DNA of 64,000 nt from Trypanosoma brucei (GCA_000002445.1 CM000207.1:2656001-2720000); one strand, 5' to 3'; positions 10,216 to 11,725 are shown, counted from the stretch's first letter. The notes: generated by a model not told the origin, from the letters alone. Program-made: numbers and translations.

Positions 10216-10275
10216 ACCAAATTTCCCCCCTCTTTTTAAAAAACTTTGCTAAAATTTTTGCTACTTGAAAACTTC

Positions 10276-10291
10276 TGATATATTTTAACAC
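10276..10291 (+). promoter_or_regulatory. Conserved VSG 3'UTR 16-mer TGATATATTTTAACAC (mRNA-stability element)
   Basis: Exact 16-mer 61 nt after the VSG stop codon. Confidence 0.8.
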
Positions 10292-10404
10292 CTAAATTAA
10301 GCCGAGTTTTTTTGTTGTTTGTTAAGTTTGAGATTCTGTAAAAAATATTTTCTGTTTTTCTGGCAACTAAAATTTTTTTCTTTTTCCCGTTTTTTTTTAT
10401 GTGC

Positions 10405-10625
10405 AGGAGGTGGTAAATAGACGGGGGAGGTAGTTAGGTAGGATTAGGGTTAGGGTTAGGGTTAATTTTACTCTAACGATTTTTTTTGATTTTCTTTCAT
10501 TTAATTGTTTTTGTTTTTTTTGGTTTTCTTTTTTTTTACAATACGTTGCTAATATTTAAATTTTTTTAAAGTGATGCAGCGGCTGTTCTGTTATGAGGAT
10601 CTTAACCCTTATTTGACCCTAGCGT
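10405..10625 (+). repeat. Telomere-hexamer inverted pair unit: GGGGGAGGTAGTTAGGTAGGA(TTAGGG)3, ~130-bp T-rich spacer, then TAACCCTTATTTGACCCTAGCG
   Basis: GGATTAGGGTTAGGGTTAGGGTTAA at 10440-10465 and TAACCCTTA at ~10603. Homologous, in opposite orientation, to the units at 44861-45035, 48687-48800, 49000-49152 and 57207-57340. Confidence 0.7.
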
Positions 10626-11039
10626 AGCGGCAGCTTTTTTTCCACTGACGCCGTCAACTCGGTTTTATTTGTCCATTCGCGGCGTCGCCACGACTTGTTT
10701 TTTACGCTTAATTTTTTTCGATTCTTTTTAATTTTTATTTTAACCTTTTAATTTTTTGAGCGACAGCAGAAACATGAGTTTTCCACATTTTTTAGCTTTT
10801 TGAATTATTTGAATTCTTTTATTTGTAGCTTTGTTAAATATATATTTTTAAACGGCTTGCCGGTTTTTTTTCAAAGCAGTTGGCCACCTTATTCGTTAGC
10901 CAGCCATCTTCAATTAATTTTTTCCTATATTCGTTATCATTAGCCAGTGGCACCATCAACGCCCATATTACGGTTTCGAATTTCATCCATACAACTTACG
11001 AAAGAGATCTCTTTAGAAGCTAACAGCAGAGGAACAGAA

Positions 11040-11377
11040 TAAATGCAAAGCTGTCACGAGCAAACCCACAGAAGGATGCGCAGCTGCCGGCTGCGACTAT
11101 GATAACAACAAAAAAGAGTACAAACCTAAACAAGGAGCAGAAAAACCCAGCAGCAGGAGAGATACCAAAAGATGGAGCAGCTGCAGCTGGATTTGTAACG
11201 CATAAATGTAAAGCCGCTTGTAAGAATGACAAAACAGACGGTAAAAATAATTGTGCATTTAGAAATGGTAAAGATAATGAACCTGATCAAGAAAAAGAAA
11301 CGTGCCGCTCTTCCAGTTTCCTCGTCAATAAAAAATTGGCCCTGATGTCTGCTTGTTTCATGGATTTACTATTTTAA
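11040..11377 (+). pseudogene. VSG 3'-end fragment: C-terminal domain with GPI signal only, no N-terminal domain
   Basis: ORF 11099..11377 ...CKAACKNDKTDGKNNCAFRNGKDNEPDQEKETCRSSSFLVNKKLALMSACFMDLLF*. Only ~400 bp separate it from the preceding telomere-like unit, too little for an N-terminal domain. Confidence 0.7.
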
Positions 11378-11559
11378 CGATTTTGATAATTTACAAGAAT
11401 TTCTATACTTTAACATTTCTTAACTGAATTGTGAAGGTAAGTGAAAATTTTTTGCATCGTAGTGTCCTGTATGTGCAAAGTAATGCTTTGTAGTGCATTA
11501 AAAATGAATGCTATTCTAATATGCAATTTTGGTTTATTCTTCTTATTTCATGAATATTT

Positions 11560-11725
11560 AGGTAATACTATAATAGTATTGCTAATGATGATGGAAGAGT
11601 GTTGTGAGAGTGCATATACGAATATTATAATAAGAGCAGTAGTAATAATAATAATGATAATAATAATAATGATAGGAGAATGATGTGGGTGTGTATATAC
11701 TAATATTATAATAAGAATGGTGGTT
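11560..11725 (+). repeat. 70-bp repeats (about 2 copies)
   Basis: GAAGAGTGTTGTGAGAGTGCATATACGAATATTATAATAAGAGCAGTAGTAATAATAATAATGATAATAATAATAATGATAGGAGAATGATGTGGGTGTGTATATACTAATATTATAATAAGAATGGTGG. Confidence 0.85.

What the first reader, a model, noticed from the sequence alone, without database searches (positions are those of the whole stretch)
10225..11725. Repeated module: VSG, then telomere-like unit, then an orphan VSG 3'-end fragment (C-terminal domain plus 3'UTR), then 70-bp repeat
After four of the five telomere-like units the next element is a VSG C-terminal-domain-only fragment, and not a complete gene: 11040-11377 (plus), 44240-44400, 47880-48480 and 56587-56900 (minus). Each fragment has its own 3'UTR and is followed by the 70-bp repeat of the next cassette. 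The fifth unit (49000-49152) is followed instead by the tandem unit at 48687-48800. The same order appears in both orientations, so it is a unit of array organisation. Several neighbouring full-length VSGs have frameshifted C-terminal domains (12299-13804, 41480-42999, 45245-46796). These orphan C-terminal-domain/3'UTR pieces are plausible 3' donors for the mosaic VSG formation seen late in infection. The telomere-like unit may mark the 3' limit of conversion.
Basis: partly seen in the sequence, partly recalled or inferred. Interest (0 to 1): 0.6.

Follow-up and report, generated by a model that had tools for sequence, protein, structure and literature searches.

The report
Fossil telomere flank plus VSG stub
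In this Trypanosoma brucei surface-antigen (VSG) gene array, four gene junctions carry a short telomere-like block followed by a decayed tail-end piece of another VSG gene, most likely a scar of past recombination with chromosome ends and not a working part of antigen switching.

Summary
The window is a T. brucei VSG array with two ingi retroelements. Four of twelve VSG-to-next-70-bp-repeat junctions are 1.1-1.6 kb long; the other eight are 240-335 bp. Each long junction reads: VSG stop, conserved 220-275 nt 3' flank, degenerate-to-perfect TTAGGG run, conserved T-rich ~100-150 nt ending AACCCTAACCCTTATTT, a 300-400 nt non-coding spacer, a C-terminal-domain (CTD)-only VSG fragment, a 3'UTR, then the 70-bp repeat. 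A profile of the unit hits five times here and nowhere in 29 kb of other T. brucei-group array DNA.

Modules B, C and D share the spacer and the same CTD start point, so they are paralogous copies of one junction. Module A has an unrelated spacer. That leaves about two independent events. All four CTD fragments are pseudogenes. Published work places TTAGGG-like repeats 3' of telomere-proximal VSGs, and finds that 3' donation mostly keeps the resident expression-site CTD.

Best reading: a fossil telomeric VSG 3' flank joined to the 3' remnant of an array VSG, then spread by duplication and exchange. Nearest-neighbour relationships change at the G-run, which fits a recombination junction there. 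I tested neither a donor role nor a conversion-limit role. Interest is moderate.

The parts
8635..10215 (+). Intact B-type VSG upstream of module A (context)
   Evidence: Pfam VSG_B 1.2e-75 and Trypan_glycop_C 4.4e-25. 97% identical to T. brucei VSG 352.
10216..10437 (+). Module A, segment U: VSG 3'UTR with perfect 16-mer (10276-10291) plus the conserved flank up to the G-run
   Evidence: 16-mer. 87% identical to the module B flank, z=38. blastn 10204-10490 against 45238-44941.
10438..10466 (+). Module A telomere-like G-run: degenerate hexamers, then 3 perfect TTAGGG, ending GGGTTA
10467..10615 (+). Module A, segment S1: T-rich conserved block ending in the CCCTAA-like motif (10602-10612)
   Evidence: Homologous in all five units. 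Inverted arms.
10616..11016 (+). Module A spacer, non-coding and unique to this module
   Evidence: No similarity to the B/C/D spacers (z<=1.5). No VSG protein similarity.
11017..11377 (+). Orphan VSG C-terminal-domain fragment A (pseudogene: one frameshift, lost cysteines) with GPI signal and stop
   Evidence: Pfam PF10659 E 7.6e-18 after frameshift repair. CTD HMM 5e-23.
11378..11565 (+). Degenerate 3'UTR of fragment A
   Evidence: Sequence read. No 16-mer within 3 mismatches.
11566..11720 (+). Two 70-bp repeats of the next cassette (VSG 12257-13804)
   Evidence: nhmmer E 1e-18 and 5e-15.
44998..45226 (-). Module B, segment U: 3'UTR (16-mer 45150-45165) plus flank, downstream of VSG pseudogene 45227-46796
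44969..44997 (-). Module B G-run: 4 perfect TTAGGG
44857..44968 (-). Module B, segment S1 with AACCCTAACCCTTATTT (12-nt perfect inverted arm 44862-44873)
44535..44856 (-). Module B spacer (B/C2/D family)
   Evidence: 70% identity to D (z=43) and 63% to C2 (z=12).
44351..44534 (-). Orphan CTD fragment B: start stub plus GPI-signal tail, core deleted
44101..44350 (-). 3'UTR of fragment B with perfect 16-mer (44247-44262)
44039..44100 (-). 70-bp repeat of the next cassette (VSG 41463-42999)
   Evidence: nhmmer 3.7e-8.
49159..49413 (-). Module C, segment U, downstream of B-type VSG 49414-50964
48991..49158 (-). Module C, unit C1: degenerate G-run (49109-49158) plus S1
48804..48990 (-). Unique sequence between tandem units C1 and C2
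   Evidence: No homology to the other spacers.
48685..48803 (-). Module C, unit C2: short G-run (48787-48803) plus S1
   Evidence: nhmmer 3.8e-32. 80% identity to B S1.
48381..48684 (-). Module C spacer (B/C2/D family)
48075..48380 (-). Orphan CTD fragment C (in-frame TAG, degenerate GPI tail)
   Evidence: CTD HMM 5e-19. Translation.
47738..47776 (-). 70-bp repeat remnant of the next cassette (VSG 45227-46796)
   Evidence: nhmmer 0.004. blastn.
57336..57610 (-). Module D, segment U (16-mer 57562-57577), downstream of B-type VSG 57611-59184
57212..57335 (-). Module D unit: remnant G-run (CTAGGGTTA, 57325-57335) plus S1
   Evidence: nhmmer 1.1e-29..
56910..57211 (-). Module D spacer (B/C2/D family)
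56587..56909 (-). Orphan CTD fragment D (two frameshifts)
   Evidence: 2.6e-9; 4.6e-17.
56290..56340 (-). Weak 70-bp-repeat-like sequence of the next cassette
   Evidence: By eye. blastn between modules C and D. Below the nhmmer threshold.

Best explanation
The module is an evolutionary scar. It records telomere-proximal VSG cassettes ending up inside a silent array.

The first half runs from the VSG stop through a conserved 220-275 nt flank, variant-then-perfect TTAGGG hexamers, and a conserved T-rich block ending AACCCTAACCCTTATTT. I read this as the sequence that normally lies 3' of telomere-proximal VSGs, with the telomere tract cut down to 1-4 repeats.

The second half runs from the spacer through the complete but decayed CTD, its 3'UTR and the 70-bp repeat. 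I read this as the 3' remainder of a resident array VSG whose 70-bp-to-N-terminal-domain part was replaced or lost when the telomeric piece was joined in.

At least two such junctions exist, A and the B/C/D family. The B/C/D junction was later copied within the array. The parts upstream of the G-run were then exchanged independently, so the G-run behaves as a recombination breakpoint. No present-day function is needed, and the CTD fragments are decaying.

Shown here: the anatomy, the homology pattern and the pseudogene state. Inferred: the telomeric origin, the direction of the events and their mechanism.
For: 1. Junction anatomy. Module junctions are 1.1-1.6 kb and the eight ordinary junctions are 240-335 bp. 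From each orphan's stop codon (about 48075 for C) to the next 70-bp repeat is 189-299 nt, near or somewhat below an ordinary junction (242-334 nt; A is shorter at 189 nt). The orphan therefore looks like the tail of a former full cassette.

2. The G-runs look like the proximal edge of a real telomere. Variant G-rich hexamers come first, then perfect TTAGGG. They start 222-275 nt after the VSG stop. The reported VSG-to-telomere distance in expression sites is 200-1590 nt (PMC2567434).

3. Hall et al. [quoted passage not shown]

4. Touray et al. 2023 ascribe weak subtelomeric RAP1 peaks to 'residual ES sequences from recombination'.

5. Homology pattern. The flank U is homologous in all four modules and S1 in all five units. 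The spacer is homologous only in B, C2 and D. A and C1 continue differently.

6. Nearest neighbours switch at the G-run. B's upstream flank is closest to A (87%). B's S1 is closest to C2 (80%). B's spacer is closest to D (70%).

7. All four orphan CTDs are pseudogenic.

8. The unit is absent from 29 kb of other T. brucei-group array DNA. It is therefore not a universal cassette component.
Against: - I could not retrieve any true telomere-proximal VSG 3' flank to compare. VSG-2 and all window VSGs are 'not on record'. The telomeric origin of U, G-run and S1 therefore rests on a literature statement and on anatomy.
- All five G-runs end in the same phase (GGGTTA) and are followed by homologous S1. 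One ancient junction that spread would also explain this.
- Both independent junctions (A and B/C/D) keep a whole CTD. A random breakpoint model does not predict that.
- The origin of the spacers is unexplained.
- The sample is one 64-kb window.
Confidence: 0.55

Rival explanations
1. Functional module. The orphan CTD/3'UTR pieces are kept as 3' donors for mosaic VSGs. The telomere-like unit sets the 3' limit of gene-conversion tracts.
For: - The module recurs with the same order on both strands.
- Several neighbouring VSGs have damaged CTDs that would need a replacement 3' end.
- Homology relationships change at the G-run, as expected if exchange tracts end there.
- Segments of pseudogenes can be used in mosaics (PMC3708902).
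Against: - All four orphans are themselves damaged.
- Three of the four are copies of one junction, so recurrence is not independent.
- 3' donation is attributed mainly to retention of the resident or telomeric CTD.
- No library VSG has a near-identical CTD.
- The unit is absent from other array DNA examined.
- An orphan CTD-like piece also occurs next to an ingi element without any unit.
Confidence: 0.1
2. Active recombination junction. A short interstitial TTAGGG run serves as the homology at which an eroded chromosome-end telomere invades. It then copies everything distal (S1, spacer, CTD stub, 70-bp repeat, following cassettes) by break-induced replication. Each such event would internalise a formerly terminal VSG and reproduce the module with a new upstream VSG.
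For: - The upstream VSGs are unrelated in coding sequence and the flank U groups differently (A with B) while the downstream parts are shared (B, C2, D).
- The number of perfect repeats varies from 1 to 4.
- Two units sit in tandem in module C.
- All G-runs end in the same phase, followed by homologous S1.
- Break-induced replication from telomere-adjacent VSGs is an established repair route in T. brucei (PMC12137147).
Against: - It rests on four modules in one window.
- The copies are 63-87% identical, so any such events are old.
- The same pattern arises from duplication followed by ordinary gene conversion of the VSG plus 3'UTR.
- Module A does not share the distal spacer.
Confidence: 0.2
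3. Assembly artefact: telomere-containing reads wrongly joined to array sequence.
For: Telomeric repeats are a classic source of misjoins. I did not test this directly.
Against: - There are five units, with diverged but homologous flanks on both sides.
- The repeats are degenerate rather than long perfect tracts.
- Orientation is consistent with the local array.
- The flanking cassette spacing is normal.
Confidence: 0.02

Closest known systems
Conserved sequence organisation 3' of telomeric VSG genes, including TTAGGG-like repeats (Aline & Stuart 1989, as cited by Hall et al. 2013, PMC3708902)
   Same: A VSG 3'UTR is followed within a few hundred nt by TTAGGG-like hexamers. The distance from the VSG stop (222-275 nt) fits the lower end of the 200-1590 nt reported for expression sites (PMC2567434).
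   Different: Here the repeats are interstitial, only 1-4 perfect copies, inside a silent array. They are followed by more array sequence and not by a telomere tract. I could not make a direct sequence comparison.
VSG gene fragments of the silent archive, mostly C-terminal (Berriman et al. 2005; Marcello & Barry 2007; recalled from memory, papers not held)
   Same: These are CTD-only pseudogene pieces in arrays. The frequency here, 4 fragments to about 16 longer VSGs, is close to the roughly 18-19% I recall being reported.
   Different: I found no description of their position directly behind a telomere-like unit in the papers I could search.
Interstitial telomeric sequences as relics of end-joining or telomere capture. 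One example is the short internal telomeric tracts between tandem Y' elements of yeast subtelomeres (own knowledge; ITS review PMC6410037 listed, not read)
   Same: Short telomeric tracts lie between tandemly arranged subtelomeric cassettes, in the orientation of the array, with variable repeat number.
   Different: The organism and cassette type differ. The tract here is followed by a conserved non-telomeric block that carries an inverted CCCTAA-like motif, and then by a truncated gene.
3' donation / segmental conversion of VSG 3' ends (Hall et al. 2013; Smith et al. 2026, PMC13233330)
   Same: It concerns exchange of the CTD-encoding region with breakpoints in or near the CTD.
   Different: Those events happen in the expression site and keep the resident CTD in frame. 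Here the CTD is separated from the upstream VSG by about 0.8-1.3 kb of non-coding DNA and is not in frame with anything.

Membership tests
VSG C-terminal domain (Pfam PF10659, Trypan_glycop_C) | Significant match to the CTD profile, including conserved cysteines and a GPI-signal tail | tested here: met
   A: Pfam E 7.6e-18 after repair of one frameshift. C: own CTD HMM 5e-19. D: 2.6e-9. B: only a start stub and GPI tail, recognisable by homology to D and by eye, not significant alone.
Complete or functional VSG gene | N-terminal domain upstream and an uninterrupted reading frame | tested here: not met
   No NTD similarity upstream. All four fragments carry frameshifts, a stop or a deletion.
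VSG 3'UTR | Conserved 16-mer TGATATATTTTAACAC downstream of the stop | tested here: inconclusive
   Perfect after fragment B (44247-44262). Not within 3 mismatches after A, C or D. Degenerate versions are visible by eye.
70-bp repeat (cassette 5' boundary) | Match to the 70-bp repeat profile directly downstream of the fragment | tested here: met
   A 1e-18, B 3.7e-8, C 0.004. D is seen only by blastn and by eye.
Telomeric repeat / interstitial telomeric sequence | Tandem TTAGGG hexamers at an internal position | tested here: met
   A has 3 perfect copies, B 4, C1 1 perfect plus several one-mismatch copies, C2 1, D a one-mismatch copy. Array sequence lies on both sides.
3' flank of telomere-proximal VSGs (Aline & Stuart 1989) | Sequence homology of the U, G-run and S1 block to the flank of VSGs at real chromosome ends | not testable with these tools
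   No telomeric VSG locus could be fetched. The paper is not held.
Structured RNA family | Rfam match at gathering threshold | tested here: not met
   No hit in the whole window.

The most novel reading that the evidence does not exclude
The interstitial telomere-like unit is an active cis element of archive evolution. Eroded chromosome ends invade at it and copy the distal array, or conversion tracts stop at it, possibly because TRF or RAP1 binds there. Telomeric VSGs would then be fed into the silent arrays at defined docking points. The CTD stubs would be the by-product that marks each docking site.
Probability: 0.15. Interest if true: 0.7.

Novelty: new member of a known kind. Interest (0 to 1): 0.4.

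Why it matters
If the reading is right, these modules are datable footprints of traffic between chromosome ends and the silent VSG archive. They would show that arrays grow or are remodelled by incorporating telomere-proximal cassettes. They would also show that short internal telomere tracts are breakpoints of later exchange.

This gives a concrete sequence marker, the U, G-run and S1 block, of about 450 nt. With it, whole T. brucei assemblies can be scanned to count such events and to ask two questions. Do the internal tracts bind telomere proteins? Do they bound conversion tracts?

The finding does not change the current picture of how mosaic VSGs get their 3' ends.

Tried and rejected
1. 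An inverted or forward remnant of a VSG tail inside the T-rich block after the G-run. By eye, peptides such as CRDASLLVKK (D) and SRYSSLLLKK (B) appear on the opposite strand. A tail HMM gives only one weak hit (57238-57303, i-E 0.013 before correction for six frames). A DNA profile of VSG 3' ends finds nothing in the module interiors on either strand (E>=1). Rejected as unsupported.

2. Spacers as decayed N-terminal-domain sequence. There are no tblastn hits better than E about 0.003, and none is consistent. Rejected.

3. Structured RNA. No Rfam hit.

4. Finding the same locus or real telomeric VSG flanks elsewhere.
- Look-ups of three window VSGs, VSG 352 and VSG-2 all returned 'not on record'.
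- Only two unrelated T. brucei-group array loci were obtained, L001 and L002. Neither carries a unit.

5. A CTD-profile search of the large protein database returned only 3 short proteins. It was of no use for fetching more loci.

6. Other CTD types (17-residue GPI-signal class) as hidden orphans. A tblastn search with VSG-2-like CTDs found only tails of full-length genes.

7. Literature searches for an existing description of telomere-like units inside arrays found none among the papers held. Marcello & Barry 2007 and Cross et al. 2014 are not held.

Full report
**What the window is**

ORF 8635-10215 is an intact VSG. Pfam gives VSG_B 1.2e-75 and Trypan_glycop_C 4.4e-25. It is 97% identical to T. 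brucei VSG 352.

Two 98%-identical ingi-type retroelements lie at about 1185-6438 (-) and 34017-39269 (+). They carry reverse transcriptase, endonuclease and RNase H domains.

VSG cassettes run on the + strand from about 7 to 34 kb and on the - strand from about 39 to 64 kb. They are delimited by 70-bp repeats and by the 3'UTR 16-mer. VSG N- and C-terminal domains were mapped with a library of about 160 VSG proteins and with HMMs built from it.

**The observation**

Perfect (TTAGGG)>=2 occurs only at 10444-10461 (+) and 44974-44997 (-): five overlapping matches against 0.01 expected. Degenerate runs lie at 49109-49158, 48787-48803 and 57325-57335.

Alignment shows that the unit is much more than the hexamers. 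A conserved block runs from the VSG stop codon through the 3'UTR and a further roughly 150 nt. It continues through the G-run and then a T-rich 100-150 nt stretch. That stretch contains AATGATGCAGCNGCTCTTTTTT and ends in AACCCTAACCCTTATTT.

A profile of this block hits exactly five places in the window, with E 1e-28 to 1e-40. It hits nothing in two other T. brucei-group array loci, L001 (21.5 kb) and L002 (7.6 kb).

After four of the five units comes a CTD-only VSG piece. The fifth unit, C1, is followed by the tandem unit C2. The pieces are:

| Fragment | Coordinates | Evidence |
|---|---|---|
| A | 11017-11377 (+) | Pfam PF10659 E 7.6e-18 after repair of one frameshift |
| C | about 48380-48075 (-) | CTD HMM 5e-19 |
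| D | 56909-56587 (-) | CTD HMM 2.6e-9 |
| B | 44534-44351 (-) | start stub plus GPI-signal tail, core deleted |

No N-terminal-domain similarity precedes any of them. Each is followed by a 3'UTR-length stretch and then the 70-bp repeat of the next cassette. The repeat after D is weak. Only B keeps a perfect 16-mer.

**Is it more than chance?**

Twelve junctions run from the end of a full-length VSG to the next 70-bp repeat. Eight measure 242-334 bp. The four with a unit measure 1.1-1.6 kb, and all four carry an orphan CTD (Fisher p=0.002).

The four are not independent, however. B, C2 and D share a homologous 300-nt spacer (63-70% identity, z 12-43) and the same CTD start point (C-R/Q-G-x-VFN...GKKC). 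The spacer of A and the sequence after C1 are unrelated to them. Counting B/C/D once gives p=0.02.

One further weak CTD-like piece (7123-7314) has an inverted copy at 997-1188. It sits next to an ingi end and has no unit. CTD stubs therefore also arise in other ways.

**Anatomy that bears on origin**

1. From each orphan's stop codon (about 48075 for C) to the next 70-bp repeat is 189-299 nt. That is near or somewhat below an ordinary junction (242-334 nt; A is shorter at 189 nt). Each orphan therefore looks like the tail of what was once a full cassette.

2. Each G-run starts 222-275 nt after the VSG stop. It shows variant G-rich hexamers first and perfect TTAGGG last, as at the proximal edge of a real telomere. 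It then stops abruptly in the same phase, GGGTTA, in all five units.

3. In four of five units an 8-12 nt CCCTAA-like block lies 90-150 nt downstream and is complementary to the G-run. I have no explanation for this.

4. Nearest-neighbour relationships change at the G-run. B's flank U is closest to A (87%, z=38). B's S1 is closest to C2 (80%). B's spacer is closest to D (70%). The coding regions of the VSGs upstream of A and B show no similarity. The A-B match starts only about 10 nt before the stop codon and runs to 24 nt past the G-run.

5. All four orphan CTDs are pseudogenic:
- A has a frameshift and lost cysteines.
- B has an internal deletion.
- C has an in-frame TAG and a degenerate tail.
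- D has two frameshifts.

**Literature**

- Hall et al. [quoted passage not shown] Half of the identified 3' donors were minichromosomal or early-expressed genes.
- Smith et al. 2026 likewise see C-terminal recombination in vivo as replacement of the N-terminal domain with the resident C-terminal region kept.
- Hertz-Fowler et al. 2008 give 200-1590 nt between the VSG and the telomere repeats in expression sites.
- Touray et al. 2023 attribute weak subtelomeric RAP1 peaks to 'residual ES sequences from recombination'.
- I found no paper among those held that describes telomere-like units followed by CTD stubs inside arrays. The two most relevant archive papers are not held.

**Explanation**

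The best-supported reading is that the module is a recombination scar. A telomere-proximal VSG came in with its conserved 3' flank and a stump of telomere. It was joined to the 3' remainder of a resident array VSG. At least two junctions exist, A and B/C/D. The B/C/D junction was copied within the array. Sequence upstream of the G-run has since been exchanged separately from sequence downstream.

This accounts for the normal cassette tail behind each orphan. It also accounts for the telomere-edge gradient of the hexamers, the fit of the distances to expression-site data, the decayed state of the stubs, and the patchy distribution of the unit.

It does not explain why both junctions preserve a whole CTD, what the spacers are, or why an inverted CCCTAA-like block follows the G-run. 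Confidence is 0.55.

A mechanistic variant has short terminal telomeres invade at an interstitial run and copy the distal array by break-induced replication. It would neatly explain shared downstream parts with differing upstream parts, the variable repeat number and the tandem unit. It rests on four old, diverged copies (0.2).

It gains nothing from the state of the fragments or from published donor analyses (0.1). Misassembly is very unlikely given five diverged copies with homologous flanks on both sides (0.02).

**What led nowhere**

- A suspected VSG-tail remnant inside the T-rich block was not supported.
- The spacers show no similarity to VSG proteins.
- There are no Rfam hits.
- No other CTD class hides further orphans.
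- No telomeric VSG flank or orthologous locus could be fetched.

**Verdict**

The pattern is real and described accurately. Its parts are known kinds: interstitial telomeric relics, and C-terminal VSG fragments of the silent archive. I could not find their consistent pairing described, and it gives a usable marker for telomere-to-array traffic. The proposed role in mosaic formation is not supported by the evidence available. Interest is 0.4.

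Noticed in passing
window 646-1903 and 6408-7657: Near-perfect (97.5%) inverted duplication flanking ingi #1. Each arm holds an ingi 3' end, a weak CTD-like fragment (997-1188 - / 7123-7314 +) and 70-bp repeats (581-740 - / 7570-7673 +). 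It forms a palindromic strand-switch point of the array and contains an orphan CTD piece with no telomere-like unit.
   Followed up: partly
window 1185-6438 (-) and 34017-39269 (+): Two ingi-type retroelements, 98% identical over 5.25 kb, sit exactly where the VSG arrays change strand.
   Followed up: partly
window 25015-25692 (+) and 59586-60257 (-): A 686-bp repeat (73% identity) lies inside two cassettes on opposite strands. It has no ORF over 70 aa and no VSG similarity. The 24-26 kb region also has an unusually high GC skew of 0.28.
   Followed up: partly
window 10443-10465/10602-10621; 44862-44873/44972-44995; 48691-48701/48790-48800; 49001-49017/49110-49135: In four of five units the TTAGGG run is complementary to an 8-12 nt CCCTAA-like block 90-150 nt downstream. 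This is a short inverted pair of telomeric hexamers around a T-rich loop. Unit D has lost it.
   Followed up: partly
window 41767-42999 (-) and 45528-46796 (-): Two long ORFs (410 and 422 aa) are VSG A-type N-terminal domains by tblastn and by my own HMM. They get no Pfam hit at E<=0.01.
   Followed up: no
window 57238-57303 (+ strand, opposite to module D): The opposite strand of the T-rich block reads SCRDASLLVKK, reminiscent of the VSG omega-site region. It is only weakly significant (i-E 0.013) and is not reproduced at the DNA level.
   Followed up: yes
window 44351-44400 and 45227-45270: Orphan fragment B and the VSG just upstream of its unit both end in the less common 17-residue type of GPI signal (NSFVIKDPLLLAFLI* and NKAPLLLAFLLF*). 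Their DNA is nearly identical over about 30 nt. This hints at local homogenisation or a duplicative origin.
   Followed up: no
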